Positions 17,058 to 42,368 of a stretch of 64,000 nt of DNA are shown here, in pieces (the stretch's first letter is position 1; each line of letters opens with the position of its first letter). The notes below the pieces were generated by a model. It was not told the origin of the DNA. It saw only the letters and a program-made list of their open reading frames with translations, and searched no databases. The stretch is from Roseibacillus sp. (GTDB taxonomy: Bacteria > Verrucomicrobiota > Verrucomicrobiia > Verrucomicrobiales > Akkermansiaceae). The DNA lies in NCBI GenBank assembly GCA_965242925.1, contig CBDEUM010000029.1, forward strand, positions 224,001 to 288,000, in the 5' to 3' direction. A program made the position numbers and the translations under genes.

Positions 17058-19691
17058 TTACTGCGCTTCGGTCCGGGTCAGGCGCACGAGATCGCTGGTA
17101 ATCAGGGCCGTCATGAGGGCTGGCCACGTGCCGCCCTTCTTCTGTGCCTCGGCGTGGATTTTCTGCACGACGGGAGCATCTCGGAAGCCGAGGGGACGTC
17201 CGAGCGAGAATTGGCACACCTTCCAGATCAGGGACTCGCGCACCCGGTCGTTTGTGGCGAGGAGATCCATCAACTCGGCTGCCGACTTGTATGCCACCGG
17301 TCTGGCCTGGCCAGGGAAGAGCACTTCCCCATCCTCCCGCAGACTGTTGTCGTGCGAATCCTTCTCGTGAAAAGTGCCCAGCCCGTCGTACTTTTCGAGA
17401 GCAAAGGCGAGCGGTTCGAACTTTGAGTGGCAGCCACCACAGGACTTGTCTGCAATGCGTTTCTCAGCCGCACCCCGATGCGAAAGACCAGGCCGGGCCG
17501 GAACGGGAGCGGTGTCCGCCTCGGGTGGGGGATCCTTTACCACCCCTCGCAGAAGGTTGTTCATGACGAAGAGACCGCGGGTGACCATGGAGGCGTCATC
17601 CCCTCCCATGGTAAGAACGCTACCCTGGGTGAGAAGACCGCCCCGGGCCGGATTGGCAGAGAGGTCGTAGCGTTCGGCTTGCTCCTCGCCTGCCCGTTCC
17701 TCCGGGGTAATACGGCCACTGTAATGATCGGCGAGGCGGGGAGTCAGGAAGGTGACCTGGGCGTTGAACAGGTCGGTGAGAGGACGTTTCTCAGTCCAGA
17801 CTACTTCCTTGAAGAAGCTGATGGTTTCCCGGCGCATGTCCTCTGCCAATCGTGTGTTCCAGCGGGGAAATTTTTTGGGATCCGGACGCATATTGGCGAG
17901 GCGTCGAAGGTTCAGCCACTGTTCCAGGAACTGCACCGAGCGTTCGATGGCACGGGGATCCTCAAGCATGCGGCCGACCTGCCTGGCGAGCACATCCGGA
18001 TCCGGGAGGTTGCCGTCCCGGGCGGCACGCATCAATTCCTCATCGGGAGAGGCACCCCAGATGATGTAGCTCAGGCGGGAAGCCAGCTCGTAGTCGTCCA
18101 CCGGCCAGGATGATCCGTCGCCGCGCTGGTTCTCGATCCGATAGATGAAGCGGGGAGACTGCAGCATGGCCTGAATGATGTAGCCGACCGCTTCCTTCAG
18201 GCTGCCACTCCCGGCCGCGACCGCAGTAGAGACTCCACGGTAGGTGATGATCTCGCGTTGCTCGAGAGGTCCTCGCAGGATCCATGTGCCCATGGGGCGG
18301 ATGAGTGCCTCCATGCTCTTGTCGGTGAAGCGGCGATCGCGTGAGAAGCGCGCAGCGAATTTCTCGGGATCCATCCGACCCACGATGATTTCGGCCAGCC
18401 TGGCGTAGGCCTCAATGTGCTTGAGATCAACACTGAGATTGTAGGCGGTGTTGGCAAACCCGTCTGCGCGGAGATCGGGGGGAAGGATCTTGTGCGCTTC
18501 CGCCGTGATATCGACACCCACGGTGGCCTTTACGGTTGCGATATATTCTTCCACGGTGAGCCGCTGGATCCACTGCTCTCCGATCCCGCCACTGCTCTGC
18601 ACGTAGTTGGCGGGATCGATGCGAGCGAGAGGCCAGACTGCCCCGCCCTCGATCCACTTCCTGAGGGTAGCCTTCTGCTCCTTGTTCAGCGGGTCATTAT
18701 CCTCAGGCATCTCGTCGTGAAAGACGGTCTCCCAGAGCAGGCTCTGTTCAGGATTGCCGGGGACGATCGAAATGCCGTCCTTGAGGGTAACGAAGGCGGT
18801 TGACCTGCGGGTGAGGTCGAGCTTGCCCTTCCGGGTGCCCGGGTCGTGGCACTCGATGCAGTGGTTGGCGAGAATGGGAGCGACTTTGTTCTCGAAGTGT
18901 ATGGCCCGGGGATCACGTTGCCCGGGGACCACCTCTCCTTCGGACGGCCCGGCCTTGAAATTGGCCATCACCTCGGATGAGGAGAGCCCGCGGCTGTAAA
19001 CGGCTACGAGGTGGTAACTACCCAGCCAGGGCCGGCTGCCATCCCTCTCGTTTCCCAGGAGGAGGTGGTAGTCCTGATTCCAATTGGCGGGATCTCCGGG
19101 AATGGATGTTTCGGCCGCCTTTTTGCCATTGAGGTAGATCCGGCTCCTGCCCGAGCGTTCCCTGGTGTAGATCAGGTGGGTGAGTCGGGTGGTCAGGCTG
19201 CGCGTTCCGGTGGAGAGGGAAGGGATGCCATTGTTGCTTGTCCTGGTAGAGCGGAAGCGCACGTCGAACTTGTCGCCATCCTGTCCCAGAGTGATGTTAC
19301 GGTTGGTGCTGTTGTGGGAAAGCGAAACGATACGGGCCGGACCGCTCTGCCTGGTGTCCGCAGGTTTGATCCAGGCTTCTACCGTGATCTCGCCGCTGCG
19401 CTTGACCGCCTCGACCAACCGGCGGGCTGGTTTGTGCGACTGCACGAGGGTCCCCCTGCGGATCTTGAGAGTTCCCTTCGAGCGGCCCACGCCCTTGGCG
19501 TCACCGAGACGCAGGTCGATTGGTTGCCCGGTTCCTGAGCGGTCCTTGATGACGGGACCGCTGGCGGAGCTGAAGTCATAGAGCGCCTGCAAGTCGCGGG
19601 TGGCACGCTGGGCCGGAGCCTGGGAACTGCCCACCCCTGCCAGAATCGAGATCAGGGCCCACGCAGGCAGGATTAGGCGGCTAGCGCGCAT
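17058..19691 (-). CDS. LamG-like + planctomycete cytochrome c (CxxCH) + DUF1587/1595/1592/1588/1585 multidomain protein
   Basis: Signal peptide from ATG 19691; ITVEAWIKP...YSRGLS (LamG); CIECH; QRLTVEEY; ELASRLSY; RGGLLTQGSVL; CGGCH...PLAFALEKYDGLG. Confidence 0.88.
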   Translation of the reverse strand: MRASRLILPAWALISILAGVGSSQAPAQRATRDLQALYDFSSASGPVIKDRSGTGQPIDLRLGDAKGVGRSKGTLKIRRGTLVQSHKPARRLVEAVKRSGEITVEAWIKPADTRQSGPARIVSLSHNSTNRNITLGQDGDKFDVRFRSTRTSNNGIPSLSTGTRSLTTRLTHLIYTRERSGRSRIYLNGKKAAETSIPGDPANWNQDYHLLLGNERDGSRPWLGSYHLVAVYSRGLSSSEVMANFKAGPSEGEVVPGQRDPRAIHFENKVAPILANHCIECHDPGTRKGKLDLTRRSTAFVTLKDGISIVPGNPEQSLLWETVFHDEMPEDNDPLNKEQKATLRKWIEGGAVWPLARIDPANYVQSSGGIGEQWIQRLTVEEYIATVKATVGVDITAEAHKILPPDLRADGFANTAYNLSVDLKHIEAYARLAEIIVGRMDPEKFAARFSRDRRFTDKSMEALIRPMGTWILRGPLEQREIITYRGVSTAVAAGSGSLKEAVGYIIQAMLQSPRFIYRIENQRGDGSSWPVDDYELASRLSYIIWGASPDEELMRAARDGNLPDPDVLARQVGRMLEDPRAIERSVQFLEQWLNLRRLANMRPDPKKFPRWNTRLAEDMRRETISFFKEVVWTEKRPLTDLFNAQVTFLTPRLADHYSGRITPEERAGEEQAERYDLSANPARGGLLTQGSVLTMGGDDASMVTRGLFVMNNLLRGVVKDPPPEADTAPVPARPGLSHRGAAEKRIADKSCGGCHSKFEPLAFALEKYDGLGTFHEKDSHDNSLREDGEVLFPGQARPVAYKSAAELMDLLATNDRVRESLIWKVCQFSLGRPLGFRDAPVVQKIHAEAQKKGGTWPALMTALITSDLVRLTRTEAQ

Positions 19692-20836: not shown

Positions 20837-23779
20837 ATGAACGCGCGCCCACTACGTCTCGCCCTTTCGGTCGGCTTGCTTTCCCTGGCGGTTACGCATG
20901 CCGAGCCGCCCAAGGAGGCTGCCTTCAAGTATCTCTCACCCAAGGAAGCGATCGCCAAGATGACGCACCCTGAGGGCTTCGTGGTGAATGCCTTCGCGGC
21001 GGAGCCCGATTGCCAGCAGCCCTTCGCCTTCACCTTTGACGAGCGGGGCCGGATCTGGCTTTGCGAGAACCTGAACTACGAGACGCGGGGATCGGACCTC
21101 TACAAGCTCGGTCCACAGGGCCGTATCGTGATCCTGACCGACACCGATGGCGATGGAGAGATGGACGAGCGCAAGGTCTTCAAGGACAAGGTCATGTTTC
21201 CCACCGGAATCGCACTGGGACACGGTGGGGTATGGGTCGGTTCACCGCCGAACCTGCTCTTTATTCCGGACCGCAACCGCGACGACATTCCCGATGGCGA
21301 GCCTGAGATCAAGCTCGATGGATGGGGACGGCAGGACCGTCACGAGACCCTCAACAGTTTCCTCTGGGGACCGGACGGCTGGCTCTACGGCACCCACGGG
21401 GTCTTCACCCACTCGAACGTGGGCAGGCCCGGCGCACCCGACAGCGAACGCCAGCGCATCAATGCCGGGGTCTGGCGCTATCATCCCCTCAACGAGAAGT
21501 TCGAGGTCTTCGCCTGGGGCACGAGCAATCCGTGGGGTCTCGACTTTGACGAGAACGGTCAGGCCTTTGTGACCGCCTGTGTCATTCCGCACCTCTTCCA
21601 CATGATCCAGGGAGGTCGCTACCACCGGCAGGGAGGCAAGCATTTCAATCCCTACGTCTACAATGATATCAAGACCATCGCGGATCATCGGCACGCTTCC
21701 GCCCATGGAGGGGCGCGTTTCTACCTCGCGGACCAGTTCCCGGAGAAGTACCGCAAGAAGCTCTTCATGTGCAATATCCACCTGCACGGGGTGCTGGTCG
21801 ATGACGTCAAGCGCAAGGGTTCCGGCTACACCGCCAGCCACGGTGAAGAGTTCTGCATGTCGAACGATCCGCAGTGGCTGGGATTCAACATGGAGATCGG
21901 TCCTGACGGATCGGTCTATGCCATCGACTGGCACGACTCCGACATCTGCGGGCGCAAGGTACTCCATCGCAAGACCGGGCGTGTCTGGCGGATCAGCTGG
22001 GGCAAGGCCAAGTTCCCGGTGGGAATGGACCTTACCAGGCTGCCTGACGAGAAGCTGGTCGAGATGCATCTTCATGCCAACGAGTGGTACGTGCGGCAGG
22101 CCCGTCGGCTCCTGCAGGAGCGTGCCCTGGCGGGCAGGATCAAGCCGGCCACCCTGGCAGGACTGCGGAGGATCCTCGATGGTCATGCCGATCCGGCACG
22201 GCGCCTGCGGGCGATGTGGACCCTGCAGCTGGTTGGGGGGCTGGGCGATGTCATGCTGGCCCCGCTTCTCGATGACAAGGCCGAGTATATCCGGGCCTGG
22301 GCCATCCAGTTGATCGCGGAAGACAAGCGGGTGCCCGATGCGGTGCTCCAGAAGTGGGCCGTGATGGCGAGGGAGGACAAGAGCGCGGCGGTTCGTCTCT
22401 TTCTGGCCTCGGCCATGCAGCGCCTTGAGCACGACAAGCGCTGGGATGTCCTCACCGCTCTGGTGGCCCACGGAGAGGACAAGGATGATCACAACCTGCC
22501 CCTTCTGATCTGGTATGCCCTCGAGCCGCTGGTGGTTCTCGATGAGGACAGGACCGCGGCGGTAGTGGCAGCCTGCAAGTTCGACAAGATCAAGGGTTTC
22601 ATCGAGCGTCGGCGGAAGGCCGGCGGCAAGTCAGCCACCGCCAAGCCCAAGCCCAGGGGACCGAAAGCCAGGCCTGCGGTATCGGTTCCCGATACGGGCC
22701 TGGTGCTGCACCTCAAAGCCGGGGACATTGCCAGCGGTGGAAAGTGGGGTGGAGCCACCCAGGCCCAGGCGGCCTTCCGACCCTCCGTGGTGGCGTCCCT
22801 CGGCGGACGGCGCGCCTACAAGTTCGACGGTGCAGATGACCGTCTCGAGATTCCCCACCGGGCCGAGCTGGCCTTCGGGAAGAACGAGGCTTACTCCCTG
22901 GCGGCCTGGGTTTACTGCGAAGGGGCCGGTAATGGTTGGACTGCGCTGGTCAACAAGTCGCGGGAGAAGTCCCGGTGGTATGGCCTGTGGATTGACCCGG
23001 CGGGCAACTGGCTCATGGGGGGGGAAAAGGCCAACGTGGAGGGAACCCGGGTGACGACCGGGTGGCATCATGTCTGCATGACCCAGGACAAGGGAGAGAG
23101 GTTCCTGTTCGTGGATGGTCACCTTGCGGCCTATGGCGCCGGGTCGGTGGCTGCCGACGGGGCAGGTGTGCTCTGGATCGGGGGCGCTCCCTCGGTAGAG
23201 GAGTTTTTCCGGGGAGGAATCAACGAAGTGCGCATTTACCGCCGGGCCCTCAGCGCAGGGGAAGTAAGTTATCTCTCCGATCAGCCGGTGGGGCTGGCGA
23301 GTCGCGGGGCGCGGGCGGAGGAGAGAACCCCGGAATTGTTTGCGCACTACCGGGATCTCCTATCCGATAAGAGCCTCAGGGGAGCGGATCTGGAGCATGG
23401 TCATTTTGTTTTCACGGAGAGCTGTGGCCGCTGTCACACCGTGAACGGAGAGGGGGGAACGGCGGGTCCAGCCCTCAGCGGCAGTGAACTCGGGAACCTG
23501 GAGTATCTTCTTCCACATGTTCTCGATCCCGATGGCGAGATTGATGAGGACTACCGCTACTACAAGTTCGAGTTGAGGGACGAGCGGGTGGTCCTGGGGG
23601 TGATTGCCGGGGAGAGTGAGCAGAGCTACACCCTGGAGTCCAACGTGGGTCGTTTTGAACTGGAGAAGGCCAGCATTGCCCACCGGGATGTCCTTCCCTA
23701 CTCCCTGATGCCCGATGCGGTCTTCCAGACCATGACGGATACCGAGGTGCGCGACCTGGTGGCTTTCCTGCGCAAGTGA
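20837..23779 (+). CDS. PVC-type membrane-bound dehydrogenase-like propeller + HEAT repeats + LamG + cytochrome c
   Basis: FAAEPD, FDERGRIW, WGPDGWLY, GTSNPWG, GPDGSVYAIDW; HEAT repeats (EYIRAWAIQL); LamG (GWHHV, INEVRIYRRAL); CGRCH and SLMP at the C-terminus. Confidence 0.88.
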   Translation: MNARPLRLALSVGLLSLAVTHAEPPKEAAFKYLSPKEAIAKMTHPEGFVVNAFAAEPDCQQPFAFTFDERGRIWLCENLNYETRGSDLYKLGPQGRIVILTDTDGDGEMDERKVFKDKVMFPTGIALGHGGVWVGSPPNLLFIPDRNRDDIPDGEPEIKLDGWGRQDRHETLNSFLWGPDGWLYGTHGVFTHSNVGRPGAPDSERQRINAGVWRYHPLNEKFEVFAWGTSNPWGLDFDENGQAFVTACVIPHLFHMIQGGRYHRQGGKHFNPYVYNDIKTIADHRHASAHGGARFYLADQFPEKYRKKLFMCNIHLHGVLVDDVKRKGSGYTASHGEEFCMSNDPQWLGFNMEIGPDGSVYAIDWHDSDICGRKVLHRKTGRVWRISWGKAKFPVGMDLTRLPDEKLVEMHLHANEWYVRQARRLLQERALAGRIKPATLAGLRRILDGHADPARRLRAMWTLQLVGGLGDVMLAPLLDDKAEYIRAWAIQLIAEDKRVPDAVLQKWAVMAREDKSAAVRLFLASAMQRLEHDKRWDVLTALVAHGEDKDDHNLPLLIWYALEPLVVLDEDRTAAVVAACKFDKIKGFIERRRKAGGKSATAKPKPRGPKARPAVSVPDTGLVLHLKAGDIASGGKWGGATQAQAAFRPSVVASLGGRRAYKFDGADDRLEIPHRAELAFGKNEAYSLAAWVYCEGAGNGWTALVNKSREKSRWYGLWIDPAGNWLMGGEKANVEGTRVTTGWHHVCMTQDKGERFLFVDGHLAAYGAGSVAADGAGVLWIGGAPSVEEFFRGGINEVRIYRRALSAGEVSYLSDQPVGLASRGARAEERTPELFAHYRDLLSDKSLRGADLEHGHFVFTESCGRCHTVNGEGGTAGPALSGSELGNLEYLLPHVLDPDGEIDEDYRYYKFELRDERVVLGVIAGESEQSYTLESNVGRFELEKASIAHRDVLPYSLMPDAVFQTMTDTEVRDLVAFLRK

Positions 23780-38644: not shown

Positions 38645-40738
38645 ATGTTGCGGGCGATGATGACGGTGTCCGGGTTCACTTTGGTGAGCCGGATTCTGGG
38701 ATTCGTGCGAGATATTCTGATTGCCCGGTTCATAGGGACCGGTCCAGTTGCGGATGCCTTCGTGGCGGCCTTCCGGTTTCCCAACATCTTTCGGCGCATC
38801 TTTGGGGAAGGGGCCTACAATGCCGCCTTCGTGCCGCTCTTTGGACGGAAACGGGAAGAGGAGGGGGAGGAGGCTGCAGTGAGTTTCGCTCGCAACACCT
38901 TTTCCGCCCTGGTCTGGGGGGTCGGGATTCTGACCCTGGTCGCGATTCCCTGCATGCACTGGCTCATGATGGCGGTCGTGCCCGGGTTCCTGCCCAAGTA
39001 TGAGGAGGACCTGGGCTCCATCGGACCCGGACAGGCCTTTCATGAACGTAAGGTCAATACGAGGGGTGCACGGGAGATTTATTTCCAGGTCACGGGGGAA
39101 TCGGAGGCTGCGGTGAGGCACTGGTCGGCGCGGACGAGGATAAAGGACATGCGCTTCGTCGATGCCGACGGGAAGGAGTTTCCGCTGCTGGCCAGGCTGG
39201 AGGCGAAGGAATCTCACATGATCCTGGGGGAAGATGAAGATCAGGTCGTGGATTCCAGCGGCTTCATCCGGACCCGTCTCGCCTTGAGTGGTGACAGTCA
39301 CAGTGGTGTCAGACGCGAAGTGGATCCGCGGGAACGGTTCTTCCCGAGAGAAGGAGAGAAGATCCTGGAGGTTGTCCACGGACTGGCATCCGGCGGTTTG
39401 GCACGCATCGTGTTGCCCGAGGGGCACCGACTGGAATCGTTCCATGTGCGGGTGGCGATCGATCCGGCATCCGGCGGTGCGGACTTTCCGCAGGCCACTC
39501 TGCGACTCTACCGCAATCATCCCGACAATTTCGATCTCACGGTGGCGCTCTCGCGCATCATGTTCTGCTACCTGTTCTTCATGGCGCTGGTGGCGCACCT
39601 GAGTGGGGTGCTCAATACCTTCAAGCATTTTGCCATGCCGGCGGCTGCGCCCATCCTGCTGAACATCGTGCTGGTGAGCGCACTGGGACTGACCTGGATG
39701 ATGCGCTGGGAGGGCGACCTTCAGATTGGGAAGACCCTTGCCTGGGGCGTGGCGCTGGCCGGGGTCCTGCAGTTTGCCGCCCTCTGGGTGACCTGTAGCC
39801 GTGCCGGGGCCGTCATGGTGCCCCACAAGCCGCTGTGGAATCCCGAACTTAAAAAACTCCTTCTCCTGATGGGACCGGGTGTGATTGCGGCTGGAATCCA
39901 GCAGGTCAATCTCCTGGTGGGTGGTATCATTGCCTCCTTCCAGCAGGGAGCGATTTCCACGCTTTATTATGCCGACCGGGTCAGCCAACTTCCCCTGGGG
40001 ATGATCGGGATTGCCCTGGGCGTAGTGCTCCTGCCCGAAGTAACTCGGCGCCTTCGCAGCGGCCGCGAAAGCGAGGCGGCCGACAGTATCCTGCGCGGGA
40101 TGGAGTTGGCCATGCTGCTGACCTTGCCTGCCACCGCCGCCATGATTGCCATTCACGAGCCATTGATCGGAGGACTCTTCGGGGGAGACAGGTTCGATGC
40201 GGAAGATGTCAGCAAAACGGGCTGGGCCCTGGCGGGATTCGCCCTGGGACTGCCCGGCTATGTCCTGATCAAGGTGCTGCAGCCGTCCTACTTCGCGCGC
40301 GAAAACACCAAGGCCCCCATGTTCATGGCGGGAGTGGCGGTGGCGGTGAACATTGTGTGCAGCCTGATCCTTTTCAATCTTCTGCGACCCACCGGATACG
40401 GCCACGTGGGGATCGCGGTCGCGACTGCAATTTCCGCCTGGGTGAACGTCGCCCTTCTCTGGCGCGGAATGGATGGATTCGTGAAGATCTCATCCGATGA
40501 GTGGAAGAGATTGATCCGTATGATCCTGGCCAGCGTGGTGATGGGAGGAGTGGTCTGGCTCGCGGGGATGGCCCTGGGTCCCTGGTTGTCCGGGACGCAG
40601 TGGCAGAAGATCATGGCATTGGTCCTGATTGTGGGCACGGGTATGACGGTCTACGGCATCCTTGCCCTCGCGATGCGGGCGACGTCCCTGGCGGCGCTCA
40701 GGGCGGGCTTCGATGAGGCGCGGTCATCCCCCAAGTGA
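38645..40738 (+). CDS. murJ: Lipid II flippase MurJ/MviN with a large inserted soluble domain
   Basis: SRILGFVRD, ADAFVAAFRFPNIFRRIFGEGA, YYADRVSQLPLG, YFARENTKAP; 697 aa versus roughly 510-520 aa for typical MurJ. Confidence 0.93.
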   Translation: MLRAMMTVSGFTLVSRILGFVRDILIARFIGTGPVADAFVAAFRFPNIFRRIFGEGAYNAAFVPLFGRKREEEGEEAAVSFARNTFSALVWGVGILTLVAIPCMHWLMMAVVPGFLPKYEEDLGSIGPGQAFHERKVNTRGAREIYFQVTGESEAAVRHWSARTRIKDMRFVDADGKEFPLLARLEAKESHMILGEDEDQVVDSSGFIRTRLALSGDSHSGVRREVDPRERFFPREGEKILEVVHGLASGGLARIVLPEGHRLESFHVRVAIDPASGGADFPQATLRLYRNHPDNFDLTVALSRIMFCYLFFMALVAHLSGVLNTFKHFAMPAAAPILLNIVLVSALGLTWMMRWEGDLQIGKTLAWGVALAGVLQFAALWVTCSRAGAVMVPHKPLWNPELKKLLLLMGPGVIAAGIQQVNLLVGGIIASFQQGAISTLYYADRVSQLPLGMIGIALGVVLLPEVTRRLRSGRESEAADSILRGMELAMLLTLPATAAMIAIHEPLIGGLFGGDRFDAEDVSKTGWALAGFALGLPGYVLIKVLQPSYFARENTKAPMFMAGVAVAVNIVCSLILFNLLRPTGYGHVGIAVATAISAWVNVALLWRGMDGFVKISSDEWKRLIRMILASVVMGGVVWLAGMALGPWLSGTQWQKIMALVLIVGTGMTVYGILALAMRATSLAALRAGFDEARSSPK

Positions 40739-40807: not shown

Positions 40808-41443
40808 ATGAAGATTCGCGTGTTTTCCCAAGGCTCCCTGGTCTGCGTGGTGATCTGGGTGCTGGTTCTGGCGGCGCAGGGATATTTCCGGAGTCTGCGG
40901 AGCACGGCGGAGAACCTGGGGAAGATGGTGGAGAAGGAGGAATTTGCGGATTGGACCGCCAGCAAGGGTGAACCGGGAGGCGAAGAGCGGCAGTTGCGCG
41001 ATGGCCGGATCCGCGAGGTAGTGTCGCTGCTCGCCGGTCAGGAGTTCAATCCCGAGACCAGGATGCGGCTGACCGAACTGAAGGATCAGTTCTATTCCAG
41101 ATTGTCCCCGGGGGAGAGGAAACTGTTCGTGAACCTCGTCCTTGAGCAGATCGATCCCTACATCGTTCTCTTTGACGCTCTTCCTGTTGAGCGTCGCCGG
41201 AAACTCATCAAGCGAGCGGTAAGGGCCGCGAGGGAGGAACTTCCCCCGGAACTCCTGGGCAGTTACGAAATCCTGAGTGCCGGGGAGGAGCAGGAGAGGA
41301 TTGGTGAAACTGGATGGCGCAGGGCGATGAAGGGGAAGAGCCCTGACCAGATCATGGAATACCTGCAGCTGATCGAGATCGCGGGGGAGCTCATTCAGCG
41401 GCTGCGGATCCCGAAGTGGGAAGGACAGATTCGCGATGAGTGA
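40808..41443 (+). CDS. Hypothetical membrane-anchored helical protein
   Basis: N-terminal TM helix and charged helical body; overlaps the start of the ABC ATPase gene. Confidence 0.7.
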   Translation: MKIRVFSQGSLVCVVIWVLVLAAQGYFRSLRSTAENLGKMVEKEEFADWTASKGEPGGEERQLRDGRIREVVSLLAGQEFNPETRMRLTELKDQFYSRLSPGERKLFVNLVLEQIDPYIVLFDALPVERRRKLIKRAVRAAREELPPELLGSYEILSAGEEQERIGETGWRRAMKGKSPDQIMEYLQLIEIAGELIQRLRIPKWEGQIRDE

Positions 41444-42368
41444 AACTGATCCCGAAGTCATCCTGGAGGCGGTCAATCTCTCCAAATCCTTTGGCGGAAA
41501 ACCAGCCCTGCAGGATCTCTCCTTTTCCGTGCGGCGAGGAGAGATCTTCGGGTTGTTGGGCCACAACGGCGCGGGGAAGAGCACCGCTCTGGGCATCTTC
41601 CTCGGGATGGTGGAACCCGACGGGGGAGAGGCTCGCATCGGGGGGGAGTCAGTGCAGCGGAGAAGGGAGCGGGCCCTGCGGCAGGCGGGTGCGATATTCG
41701 AGGCACCTGCTTTCTACGATTATCTGAGCGGCTGGGAGAACCTCAAGGTTCTCATGAGTTACTCGGGAGGATTTGATGCGGACGCGGCGCAGCAGGTTGT
41801 GGAGGAGGTGGACTTGTCGGACCGGGTTCACTCCAGGGTTTCGTCCTACAGTCATGGGATGCGGCAGCGGCTGGCCCTGGCCCAGGCCCTCCTGCCGGAA
41901 CCGCGGCTCCTCCTGCTTGATGAGCCCACCGACGGCCTTGATCCCGAGGGGATCAAGTGGTTCCGCGACTTTATCCTGCGGTTGCGGGCAGAGCGCGGCA
42001 TCACGGTCCTCTTCAATTCGCACCTGCTTCCGGAAGTGGAGCAGATGTGTGATCGCGTCGCCATCGTGCGACGGGGTCGCAAGGTCTACGATGGAGAACT
42101 GGCAGGAATAGCAGATGACCACGTGAAGCTGGAAATCGAGGCCGATCCCGCCGAGCAGGCAAGTGCCTGCTACCGTAAACTGGGCGGGCGGGAGCTGGAG
42201 GAGGGCAGAAGGGTGATTTTTCCGGAGGGCACTGATCCGGCGGAGGTGGCCCGGGCGCTGATCAAGGCAGGGGTGGATCTGAGAAAACTGATTCCCGTGC
42301 GGCGTTCACTGGAGGATGTCTACCTGGAGGTAATTGGGTGTCTGGATGGAGAGGAAGGGGAGCAGTGA
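41436..42368 (+). CDS. ABC exporter ATP-binding protein
   Basis: GHNGAGKST, YSHGMRQRL, LLDEPTDGLDP, SHLL. Confidence 0.93.
   Translation: MSETDPEVILEAVNLSKSFGGKPALQDLSFSVRRGEIFGLLGHNGAGKSTALGIFLGMVEPDGGEARIGGESVQRRRERALRQAGAIFEAPAFYDYLSGWENLKVLMSYSGGFDADAAQQVVEEVDLSDRVHSRVSSYSHGMRQRLALAQALLPEPRLLLLDEPTDGLDPEGIKWFRDFILRLRAERGITVLFNSHLLPEVEQMCDRVAIVRRGRKVYDGELAGIADDHVKLEIEADPAEQASACYRKLGGRELEEGRRVIFPEGTDPAEVARALIKAGVDLRKLIPVRRSLEDVYLEVIGCLDGEEGEQ

What the first reader, a model, noticed from the sequence alone, without database searches (positions are those of the whole stretch)
38996..39517. MurJ flippase with a ~174-aa insert resembling a circularly permuted NPCBM/NEW2 carbohydrate-binding module
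Seen: canonical MurJ sequence stops after VVPGFLP and resumes at HPDNFDLTVALSRIMFCY, with 174 hydrophilic, beta-rich residues in between. Knowledge: this is the TM3-TM4 loop, which is short and outward-facing in typical MurJ. Inference: the first part (YEEDLGSIGPGQAFHERKVNTRGAREIYFQVTG...RTRIKDMRFVDADGKE) resembles the C-terminal half of NPCBM, and the last part (HGLASGGLARIVLPEGHRLESFHVRVAIDP...QATLRLYRN) resembles its N-terminal half. That is the permuted order I recall from PVC proteins. A glycan-binding lid on a lipid II flippase could hold the flipped precursor or hand it to a polymerase. I do not recognise this architecture as described.
Basis: partly seen in the sequence, partly recalled or inferred. 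Interest (0 to 1): 0.82.

Follow-up and report, generated by a model that had tools for sequence, protein, structure and literature searches.

The report
MurJ flippase with inserted lectin-like domain
The only cell-wall precursor flippase (MurJ) of this marine verrucomicrobium carries a well-folded extra domain on its outer face that appears to descend from a sugar-binding module; the variant is kept across a whole clade, but what the domain does has not been tested.

Summary
Window 38645-40738 (+) encodes a 697-aa MurJ (TIGR01695 5.9e-116). A 174-aa segment (aa 118-291) replaces the very short TM3-TM4 periplasmic loop of solved MurJ proteins.

The insert is not an assembly artefact. It occurs in all 19 same-genus genomes searched and in four further genera. 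Insert-bearing MurJs form one branch of the MurJ tree (SH-aLRT 97). It folds confidently as a beta-sandwich (pLDDT 91.7) and is under purifying selection (dN/dS 0.17-0.47, against 0.07-0.16 for the core).

Kinship to a circularly permuted NPCBM module is supported at profile level. hhalign of 27 inserts against 23 naturally permuted NPCBM domains of PVC-type heme proteins gives probability 94%, E 1e-7, 114 collinear columns. All controls score 25 or less. Pfam's own NPCBM model and the structure searches do not detect the kinship.

Glycan binding or lipid II hand-off remains inference only. The scan met the same feature before in another genome (e1-5268090) and judged the NPCBM link unsupported there. 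It is a new variant of a known kind, of moderate interest.

The parts
38645..40738 (+). MurJ (lipid II flippase) coding sequence, 697 aa plus stop. It is the only MurJ orthologue in the genome.
   Evidence: ORF. PF03023 9.1e-97 and TIGR01695 5.9e-116. The full-length AF2 model matches solved MurJ 7waw (TM-score 0.93 normalised to target, rmsd 2.6). The only other PF03023 match in the own genome is a weak one (28.5 bits) in a 499-aa ORF on contig C14.
38645..38995 (+). TM1-TM3 (aa 1-117), ending in the conserved PGF motif.
   Evidence: Aligns to residues 4-118 of 7waw. R16, R22, D37 and R50 are invariant in 39 orthologues. They correspond to E. coli R18, R24, D39 and R52 (PMC4790310).
38996..39517 (+). 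Inserted periplasmic beta-sandwich domain (aa 118-291).
   Evidence: Absent from solved MurJ and from insert-less relatives. AF2 pLDDT 91.7. Conserved in 29 MurJs that form one branch. dN/dS 0.17-0.47.
39035..39187 (+). First sub-part (aa 131-181), alignable to the canonical C-terminal half of NPCBM, which is the first half of natural permuted NPCBM domains.
   Evidence: hhalign: insert 16-66 against permuted NPCBM 23-70. The insert profile also hits this part of a bona fide permuted NPCBM in G126 and G289 at E 8.5e-5 and 1.4e-4 per genome.
39188..39271 (+). Variable middle elaboration (aa 182-209), missing or different in short-insert forms.
   Evidence: Alignment occupancy is 0.54-0.70 here. 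It is absent in the inserts of G324, G007 and P0024 and is largely gapped in the hhalign alignment.
39272..39475 (+). Second sub-part (aa 210-277), alignable to the canonical N-terminal half of NPCBM. It contains the invariant L257-P258-x-x-H261 motif.
   Evidence: hhalign: insert 95-162 against permuted NPCBM 75-137 within one collinear alignment. The divergent-insert subset alone hits this half (score 29.7, E 4.9e-4). H261 is kept in 27 of 27 inserts, L257 and P258 in 26 of 27.
39476..39520 (+). Last beta-strand of the domain and its junction to TM4 (aa 278-292; R290-N291-H292).
   Evidence: Strand E169-175 in the model. N291 is kept in 27 of 27 inserts, H292 in 25 of 27.
39518..40735 (+). 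TM4-TM14 (aa 292-697).
   Evidence: Aligns to residues 119-492 of 7waw. D444 and R445 (E. coli R270 position) are nearly invariant.

Best explanation
This is the cell's single, presumably functional MurJ lipid II flippase. In it, the very short periplasmic loop between TM3 and TM4 has been replaced by an autonomously folding beta-sandwich domain of about 175 aa.

Shown: the insertion happened once, in an ancestor of a sub-lineage of this verrucomicrobial order (the window's own genus plus at least four other genera). The insert has been kept under purifying selection while its middle part was remodelled.

Supported at profile level (my estimate about 0.8): the domain descends from the circularly permuted NPCBM (CBM51-like) module found at the N-terminus of PVC-type heme-binding CxxCH proteins of the same organisms. 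It is now too divergent for Pfam's model.

Inferred only: the domain sits on the periplasmic face of the N-lobe of MurJ and acts as an accessory binding module. The most likely ligand class is a glycan. This could be the disaccharide head group of flipped lipid II or peptidoglycan strands, which would retain or position the substrate next to the polymerases (my estimate about 0.35). A protein partner is nearly as likely.
For: - MurJ identity and integrity. The family models are met. The full-length fold matches solved MurJ (TM-score 0.93 to 7waw). The essential cavity residues are invariant. It is the only MurJ in the genome.
- Insert is real and conserved. It is found in 19 of 19 same-genus genomes. 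The insert profile finds it in MurJ of 9 of 400 other genomes of the order: g22 5 of 6, g19 2 of 2, plus G324 and G354.
- Single origin. On a tree built without the insert columns, 29 insert-bearing against 16 insert-less MurJs need one change (SH-aLRT 97).
- Fold. pLDDT 91.7, pTM 0.85, all-beta plus one helix. The same fold appears within the full-length model.
- Selection. dN/dS is 0.17-0.47 for the insert and 0.065-0.16 for the rest, over 9 pairs.
- NPCBM descent. hhalign of 27 inserts against 23 natural permuted NPCBM domains gives Prob 94.3, E 9.7e-8, score 51.1, 114 collinear columns. Reversed profiles score 15.3 and 14.0. Eighty column shuffles reach at most 16.2. Forty 8-column block shuffles reach at most 25.4.
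- Specificity. Other beta-sandwich families from the same genomes score 18.5 (F5/8 type C, 29 sequences) and 11.8 (Laminin_G_3, 28 sequences).
- Robustness. The result is stable with three target subsets (Prob 88-94.7). The two halves are each hit by a different insert subset.
- Permutation. Against canonical NPCBM, the insert's N-terminal part aligns to the canonical C-terminal part.
- Independent hits. The insert HMM hits a Pfam-confirmed permuted NPCBM in two genomes. In the atlas, 22 of 30 neighbours are NPCBM clusters, score 0.93.
- Donor-type domains exist in the same genome.
Against: - Pfam PF08305 does not detect any of the 20 inserts scanned at E<=10.
- HMM-against-sequence scores within the own genome are not significant. 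The permuted-NPCBM HMM places MurJ 13th of 17,931 ORFs at E 18. The insert HMM places the two NPCBM proteins 17th (E 27) and 143rd.
- A2 as an HMM finds nothing else in the own genome at E<=10. It finds no solved chain at E<=10.
- With the narrower 20-sequence alignment, hhalign reached only Prob 74% and covered only the first half. Against single NPCBM sequences it reached Prob under 3%.
- The atlas match shares 161 of 256 features, below the 170 typical of same-family hits.
- The acidic/aromatic NPCBM motif is not conserved, and the invariant LPxxH motif is specific to the insert. Even if the domain is homologous to NPCBM, sugar binding may have been lost.
- No ligand, partner or position relative to the MurJ cavity could be computed.
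Confidence: 0.6

Rival explanations
1. The insert is a beta-sandwich unrelated to NPCBM. It would be either an independently evolved jelly-roll-like domain or a descendant of another family, and the profile similarity would be convergence or alignment noise between beta-rich profiles.
For: There is no Pfam or NCBIfam hit. HMM-against-sequence E-values in the own genome are not significant. The earlier follow-up on another genome found the kinship unsupported.
Against: The hhalign score of 51.1 is far above reversed, shuffled and block-shuffled controls (at most 25.4) and above two other beta-sandwich families (at most 18.5). The alignment is collinear over both halves. It reproduces with subsets, and each half is found independently. 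The HMMER hit at 8.5e-5 falls exactly on the predicted half of a bona fide permuted NPCBM. The language-model neighbours are NPCBM clusters.
Confidence: 0.2
2. Whatever its origin, the domain no longer binds sugar. Instead it is a protein-protein or regulatory module. It might dock a periplasmic partner such as a synthase, hydrolase or regulator, or gate the outward-open state of MurJ.
For: The NPCBM sugar-site-type acidic/aromatic motif is not kept. New invariant residues appear: G141, L257-P258-x-x-H261, N291. The middle part is remodelled between lineages, as expected for a lineage-specific interface. CBM51 members already show three different recognition modes (PMC9513282, passage read), so sites are labile.
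Against: No partner was identified. The neighbouring genes are unrelated housekeeping genes: shikimate kinase, Sua5/TsaC and an ABC ATPase. The nearest detectable relatives are carbohydrate-binding modules.
Confidence: 0.3
3. The insert is a tolerated passenger domain with no function of its own. It would be retained because deleting it cleanly is unlikely or because it stabilises folding.
For: It evolves 2-3 times faster than the TM core. Its length varies from 128 to 177 aa. A 24-aa mini-insertion at the same site in G020 shows that the loop tolerates additions.
Against: dN/dS is well below 1 in all 9 pairs. The insert is retained in all 29 members of the clade sampled, across at least five genera, with no loss. 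There are invariant residues and a confident compact fold.
Confidence: 0.1
4. The insert is an assembly chimera or an annotation artefact.
For: None found. The genome is a 42-contig assembly estimated at 89.9% completeness.
Against: The same in-frame insert occurs in many independent assemblies and metagenomic proteins. Its G+C content equals that of the flanks.
Confidence: 0.01

Closest known systems
Canonical MurJ/MviN lipid II flippase (E. coli MurJ 6CC4/7WAG; 7WAW/7WAX; Thermosipho MurJ 5T77)
   Same: It has the same 14-TM MOP-superfamily core: TIGR01695 5.9e-116 and TM-score 0.93 to 7waw. The equivalents of the essential residues R18, R24, D39, R52 and R270 are conserved.
   Different: About 175 extra residues form a folded domain where solved MurJs have a loop of a few residues between TM3 and TM4.
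Mycobacterium tuberculosis MviN (Rv3910): MurJ with a C-terminal pseudokinase and an extracytoplasmic carbohydrate-binding domain
   Same: It is a MurJ that carries an extracytoplasmic module of carbohydrate-binding type (PMC12599244, passage read; the structural details of Gee et al. 2012 are recalled, not seen).
   Different: In MviN the module is a C-terminal extension after an extra TM helix and a cytoplasmic pseudokinase. Here it is an insertion into the TM3-TM4 loop. There is no kinase-like domain and no C-terminal extension. No sequence similarity to any solved chain was found with the insert profile.
NPCBM/NEW2 (Pfam PF08305; CBM family 51), especially its naturally circularly permuted form at the N-terminus of PVC-type heme-binding CxxCH proteins (TIGR02604)
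   Same: Profile-profile similarity is collinear with the permuted form over 114 columns (Prob 94%). The fold class is a beta-sandwich. Shared motifs include hydrophobic strands around V-x-V-x-x-x-G-x-x-x-[LIY]-x-[LFV] and [LV]-P-E-G-x-x-x-F. Such domains are present in the same genome.
   Different: It scores below Pfam's threshold. It lacks the D-x-A-D/x-W acidic motif, has an extra helix and a variable middle elaboration, and carries its own invariant LPxxH motif. It is embedded in a membrane transporter loop instead of a soluble or secreted protein. No carbohydrate binding has been shown.
Earlier finding of this scan, e1-5268090 (another genome)
   Same: It describes the same architecture: MurJ with a beta-rich periplasmic insert of about 158 aa that arose once and is kept in a subgroup of Akkermansiaceae.
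   Different: That follow-up judged the NPCBM kinship unsupported. Here a broader insert alignment, compared with natural permuted NPCBM domains, gives a specific signal that passed controls.

Membership tests
MurJ/MviN lipid II flippase (TIGR01695, PF03023) | Score above the curated cut-off of the family models | tested here: met
   TIGR01695 scores 388.2 bits against a cut-off of 235.55. PF03023 scores 324.9 bits against 27.4.
MurJ/MviN lipid II flippase (TIGR01695, PF03023) | 14-TM MOP fold superposable on solved MurJ | tested here: met
   The AF2 model has pLDDT 83.2. Foldseek to 7waw gives E 1.8e-21, TM-score 0.93 (target-normalised) and rmsd 2.6.
MurJ/MviN lipid II flippase (TIGR01695, PF03023) | Essential cavity residues (E. 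coli R18, R24, D39, R52, R270) | tested here: met
   R16, R22, D37 and R50 are invariant, and R445 is nearly invariant, in 39 orthologues. The residue list is from PMC4790310.
MurJ/MviN lipid II flippase (TIGR01695, PF03023) | Lipid II flipping activity | not testable with these tools
   This needs complementation of a MurJ depletion or an in vivo flipping assay.
NPCBM/NEW2 (PF08305) = CBM51 | Match to the Pfam model above the gathering score (23.9 bits) | tested here: not met
   None of the 20 inserts scanned matches PF08305 at E<=10. I therefore do not file it as a member as Pfam defines the family.
NPCBM/NEW2 (PF08305) = CBM51 | Detectable homology to bona fide family members (profile-profile) | tested here: met
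   hhalign gives Prob 94.3, E 9.7e-8 and 114 columns against 23 Pfam-positive permuted NPCBM domains. All controls score 25.4 or less.
NPCBM/NEW2 (PF08305) = CBM51 | CBM51 beta-sandwich topology shared with solved members (2VMG, 7JS4) | tested here: inconclusive
NPCBM/NEW2 (PF08305) = CBM51 | Conserved acidic/aromatic motif (D-x-A-D/x-W region) seen in the NPCBM alignments built here | tested here: not met
   The insert consensus has 'S-x-x-A-x-x-H-W-S-x-R' in this region, and the acidic residues are not kept.
NPCBM/NEW2 (PF08305) = CBM51 | Carbohydrate binding | not testable with these tools
   This needs glycan arrays, ITC or pull-downs with the isolated domain.
Actinobacterial MviN type (MurJ + pseudokinase + C-terminal extracellular carbohydrate-binding domain) | C-terminal extension with a kinase-like domain and an extra TM helix | tested here: not met
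   The protein ends about 20 residues after TM14. No kinase family appears in the Pfam or NCBIfam scans.

The most novel reading that the evidence does not exclude
The inserted domain is a built-in receiver for the flipped substrate. It would bind the GlcNAc-MurNAc(-peptide) head group of lipid II, or nascent glycan strands, at the periplasmic mouth of MurJ, and so couple flipping physically to polymerisation. That would make this a natural flippase with its own hand-off module. It would be recruited from a permuted sugar-binding domain of PVC-specific heme proteins and re-specialised through the invariant LPxxH site.
Probability: 0.25. Interest if true: 0.8.

Novelty: new variant of a known kind. 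Interest (0 to 1): 0.55.

Why it matters
How lipid II leaves MurJ on the outer face, and how it reaches the SEDS and class A PBP polymerases, is unresolved. A clade in which the sole, presumably essential flippase has permanently acquired a lectin-derived periplasmic domain is a natural experiment on that step. murJ is essential in Verrucomicrobium spinosum (PMC12283558, table passage read).

The domain can be expressed alone for ligand screening. It can also be deleted or swapped, and imaged on the transporter.

The finding also documents a clear case of domain insertion into a transporter loop from a circularly permuted donor module present in the same genomes. And it shows that NPCBM-like domains extend beyond what Pfam's model recognises.

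If the domain turns out to be a passenger or a lineage-specific docking site, the interest is mainly evolutionary.

Tried and rejected
- Pfam and NCBIfam scans of the insert alone gave 0 families at E<=10. A Pfam scan of all 20 members of alignment A2 gave only four unrelated one-member hits at E 0.15-0.22.
- phmmer of the insert against 1.84 billion representatives gave 4 hits. Three sit at the same place (residue 114-118 onward) of MurJ-length or MurJ-fragment proteins; the fourth (P0023) is a 155-aa fragment. No other context was found.
- hhalign of A2 against single NPCBM sequences gave Prob 2.6-2.8%, which is uninformative.
- A2 as an HMM against the own genome hit only itself at E<=10. 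Against PDB sequences it gave 0 hits at E<=10.
- HMM-against-sequence ranks in the own genome were suggestive but not significant.
- Foldseek against the PDB gave 0 matches at E<=0.001.
- A phylum-wide sample found the insert profile in 0 of 400 genomes at E<=0.001.
- A single-sequence survey of the order missed the divergent inserts that the profile search later found.
- Recent foreign origin by composition is rejected: G+C is flat across the insert.
- Mtb-type architecture is rejected (see membership test).
- The model's coordinates and PAE are not available to scripts. Whether the domain caps the outward cavity could therefore not be examined.
- Literature: three searches found no description of a MurJ loop insertion or of permuted NPCBM in this context. 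A search for CBM51 binding-site residues gave only a secondary description. Gregg et al. 2008 was not available to me.
Full report
OBSERVATION. The window holds one uninterrupted ORF at 38645-40738 (+) of 697 aa. Pfam MurJ (PF03023, 9.1e-97) and NCBIfam TIGR01695 (5.9e-116, 388 bits against a 235.55-bit cut-off) both match it in two stretches. Against solved MurJ chains, the match is query 2-116 to 7waw residues 4-118 and query 291-670 to residues 119-492. The two halves abut in the solved protein, so about 174 residues lie between them here. G+C content is flat across the insert (0.60-0.61).

TOPOLOGY. E. coli MurJ has 14 TM helices with both termini in the cytoplasm and D39 in periplasmic loop 1 (PMC4790310, passages read). 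The TM3-TM4 loop is therefore periplasmic by homology. This rests on homology and was not tested directly.

IS THE FLIPPASE INTACT, AND IS IT THE ONLY ONE?
- The equivalents of the essential E. coli residues are present. R16, R22, D37 and R50 are invariant, and R445 is nearly invariant, in an alignment of 39 orthologues. They correspond to R18, R24, D39, R52 and R270.
- A full-length AlphaFold2 model (39-sequence alignment; pLDDT 83.2, pTM 0.82) superposes on solved MurJ. The best matches are 7waw (TM-score 0.93 normalised to the target, rmsd 2.6), 7wax and 7wag.
- The own genome (42 contigs, 89.9% complete) has no second MurJ. The only other PF03023 match is a weak one (28.5 bits) in a 499-aa ORF on contig C14, probably another MOP-family transporter.
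- The neighbouring genes are unrelated housekeeping genes: shikimate kinase, Sua5/TsaC, an unnamed 211-aa ORF and an ABC ATPase.

IS THE INSERT REAL, AND HOW FAR DOES IT REACH?
- A word-seeded search with aa 110-300 found 20 proteins. Eighteen are 678-697 aa long and 43-100% identical over this region. Two are fragments. One carries a public name as a Roseibacillus sp. MAG MurJ.
- All 19 same-genus genomes searched carry an insert. Sixteen give a continuous full-length match, one is cut by a contig end, and two have shorter inserts. Five genomes of five other genera of the same family have none; one of these, G020, has only 24 extra residues. Among 16 genomes of other families of the order, only G040 has an insert.
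- A profile of 20 inserts (alignment A2) was searched over 400 further genomes of the order. It found MurJ inserts in 9 genomes: genus g22 5 of 6, g19 2 of 2, plus G324 and G354. A 400-genome sample of the phylum (185 genera) gave 0 further hits.
- phmmer of the insert against 1.84 billion representatives returned only 4 proteins. Three carry the match at the same place in MurJ; the fourth is a 155-aa fragment.
- On a maximum-likelihood tree of 45 MurJs, built with the insert columns removed, the 29 insert-bearing proteins are one side of a branch (SH-aLRT 97). One change explains presence of the insert. Two rows under 430 aa were dropped (L017, L089). The method was IQ-TREE 'quick', and the insert-less rows have long branches.
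- Long (155-177 aa) and short (128-150 aa) forms are interspersed on the tree (4 changes), so the middle of the domain has been remodelled repeatedly.
- Nei-Gojobori dN/dS between the window's gene and 9 orthologues is 0.17-0.47 for the insert and 0.065-0.16 for the rest. dS is saturated in the more distant pairs. The least saturated informative pair, L022, gives 0.25 against 0.09.
- The insert is thus a conserved, selected, clade-wide feature.

FOLD.
- The insert alone (aa 116-292, 20-sequence alignment) is predicted with mean pLDDT 91.7 and pTM 0.85. It has 13 strands and one helix at insert residues 39-48. The same elements appear in the full-length model.
- Foldseek against the PDB found nothing at E<=0.001.
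- Solved CBM51/NPCBM entries (2vmg, 2vmh, 7js4, 7jrm, 7jrl, 8pvs; identified) are not among the rows shown. These aligners are sequential, so they cannot settle a circularly permuted relationship. I count the structural test as inconclusive.

THE NPCBM QUESTION.

Negative results:
- Pfam's NPCBM model does not see the insert: 0 of 20 members at E<=10.
- An HMM of the inserts finds nothing else in the own genome and no solved chain.

Positive results:
1. The language-model atlas lists NPCBM clusters as 22 of the 30 nearest neighbours. The score is 0.93, and 161 of 256 features are shared, below the 170 typical of same-family hits.
2. The own genome encodes two large proteins in which Pfam's NPCBM model matches in swapped order, with profile positions 86-136 before 3-82. 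One of them is a 'PVC-type heme-binding CxxCH protein' (TIGR02604 5.4e-135 plus TIGR02603). The other, scanned only as a 785-aa part, matches the heme-binding domain TIGR02603 alone.
3. From a 150-genome sample of the class I built two alignments: 23 natural permuted NPCBM domains and 7 canonical ones. These match each other at Prob 99.4%.
4. The 20-sequence insert alignment hit the permuted profile at Prob 74%, E 2.7e-5, score 37.3, covering insert 17-66. Reversed profiles scored 12.0, and 100 column shuffles scored a mean of 12.4 and a maximum of 22.4.
5. After I added the divergent inserts of g19, g22 and g64 (27 rows), the match rose to Prob 94.3%, E 9.7e-8, score 51.1. It spans 114 collinear columns, insert 16-162 against permuted NPCBM 23-137.
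6. Controls for this larger alignment: reversed profiles 15.3 and 14.0; 80 column shuffles with mean 10.8 and maximum 16.2; 40 shuffles of 8-column blocks with mean 17.9 and maximum 25.4.
7. Specificity: two other beta-sandwich families taken from the same genomes score 18.5 (F5/8 type C, 29 sequences) and 11.8 (Laminin_G_3, 28 sequences).
8. Robustness: three subsets of the target alignment give Prob 88-94.7%. The 19 own-genus-type inserts alone hit the first half (score 35.9). The 8 divergent inserts alone hit the second half (score 29.7, E 4.9e-4). Both hits are in the permuted register.
9. Against canonical NPCBM, the insert's N-terminal part aligns to the canonical C-terminal part (insert 14-62 against 106-151). 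This is weak (score 21.1) but in the direction predicted.
10. In the order-wide HMMER survey, the insert profile hit a non-MurJ 1523-aa ORF in two related genomes (G126, G289; E 8.5e-5 and 1.4e-4 per genome). The hit falls exactly on the first part of a domain that Pfam calls NPCBM (2.6e-20) in permuted order.

Results against the kinship:
- HMM-against-sequence scores inside the own genome are not significant. MurJ ranks 13th of 17,931 ORFs for the permuted-NPCBM HMM (E 18). The two NPCBM proteins rank 17th and 143rd for the insert HMM.
- The acidic D-x-A-D/x-W motif of NPCBM is not kept. The insert's own invariant residues are G141, H261 and N291 (27 of 27) and L257 and P258 (26 of 27). The LPxxH histidine lies in a two-residue insertion relative to NPCBM.

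Caveats: the alignments were built by me from six-frame translations. No secondary-structure term was used. hhalign E-values are for a single-profile comparison.

My reading is that the insert is very probably (about 0.8) a divergent descendant of the permuted NPCBM module. It is not a member of PF08305 as that family is currently defined.

MECHANISM.

Shown: a folded, selected, clade-specific domain sits in the outward-facing TM3-TM4 loop of the sole MurJ.

Inferred: its location on the periplasmic face of the N-lobe (from recalled knowledge of MurJ architecture; I could not inspect coordinates).

Inferred: its role. Its only detectable relatives are carbohydrate-binding modules, and its host protein delivers a glycolipid. 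The most economical hypothesis is therefore that it binds a glycan, either the lipid II head group or peptidoglycan strands, and so retains, orients or hands over the flipped precursor (about 0.35). CBM51 members already use three different recognition modes (PMC9513282, passage read), and the NPCBM motif is lost here. A switch to a protein partner or a gating role is therefore nearly as likely (about 0.3). A functionless passenger is unlikely (about 0.1), given the selection and the absence of any loss in the clade.

COMPARISON AND NOVELTY. The closest precedent in concept is M. tuberculosis MviN. That MurJ bears a carbohydrate-binding domain and a pseudokinase (PMC12599244, passage read; the primary paper by Gee et al. 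2012 is recalled, not seen). There the module is a C-terminal extension, not a loop insertion. Three full-text searches found no description of a MurJ loop insertion or of this use of a permuted NPCBM. PMC3000692 (indels in PVC bacteria) and PMC12283558 (V. spinosum essential genes, murJ essential) were checked by term search and do not mention it. Supplements were not consulted. This scan has met the same feature before in another genome (e1-5268090). That follow-up agreed on the observation and on the single origin, but found the NPCBM link unsupported. The present analysis contradicts it on that point by using natural permuted NPCBM domains as the target and a broader insert alignment. I class the finding as a new variant of a known kind, with interest 0.55.

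Noticed in passing
own genome, contig C3:23225-26374 (-) = L038:226-3375, and contig C38 around 221742-222149 (+) (outside the window): Two proteins of about 1050 aa carry a naturally circularly permuted NPCBM domain, with Pfam positions 86-136 before 3-82. In the C3 protein the domain is N-terminal, ahead of the TIGR02604 region. In the C38 protein it lies mid-protein, at about aa 567-716 of the 1052-aa ORF. C3 matches TIGR02604 'PVC-type heme-binding CxxCH protein' plus TIGR02603. C38 matched TIGR02603 only, in the 785-aa part scanned. They are probable relatives of the donor of the MurJ insert.
   Followed up: partly
L079 (G126:C1:376880-380059) and L080 (G289): A 1523-aa ORF that the MurJ-insert profile hits directly. 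It carries a permuted NPCBM (Pfam 2.6e-20) in mid-protein. The flanking domains were not scanned.
   Followed up: partly
L017 (G020:C313:1-1700): A MurJ of another genus of the same family has a 24-residue mini-insertion at the same TM3-TM4 site. The contig is cut, and the row was too short for the tree.
   Followed up: no
L013 (G036:C93:31000-36500): The MurJ reading frame of this genome stays open for 1142 aa, about 610 residues upstream of the MurJ start. This could be a fusion or just an open frame.
   Followed up: no
window 40808-41443 (+): A 211-aa ORF directly downstream of murJ has no Pfam family. It overlaps by 8 bases the start of an ABC-transporter ATPase gene at 41436-42368.
   Followed up: no
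window about 18969-19400 (-) and 22826-23269 (+) (C29:242969-243400 and C29:246826-247269): Two ORFs of about 990 aa with Laminin_G_3 domains lie in the window. The genome as a whole has 45 Laminin_G_3 matches and 12 F5/8 type C matches at E<=1e-8, a large repertoire of lectin-like domains.
   Followed up: no
own genome, contig C14:359961-360494 (-) and C14:361473-361805 (-): A second, weak MOP-family (PF03023, 28.5 bits) ORF of 499 aa lies next to a 339-aa ORF with an F5/8 type C domain. It may be a polysaccharide flippase locus.
   Followed up: no
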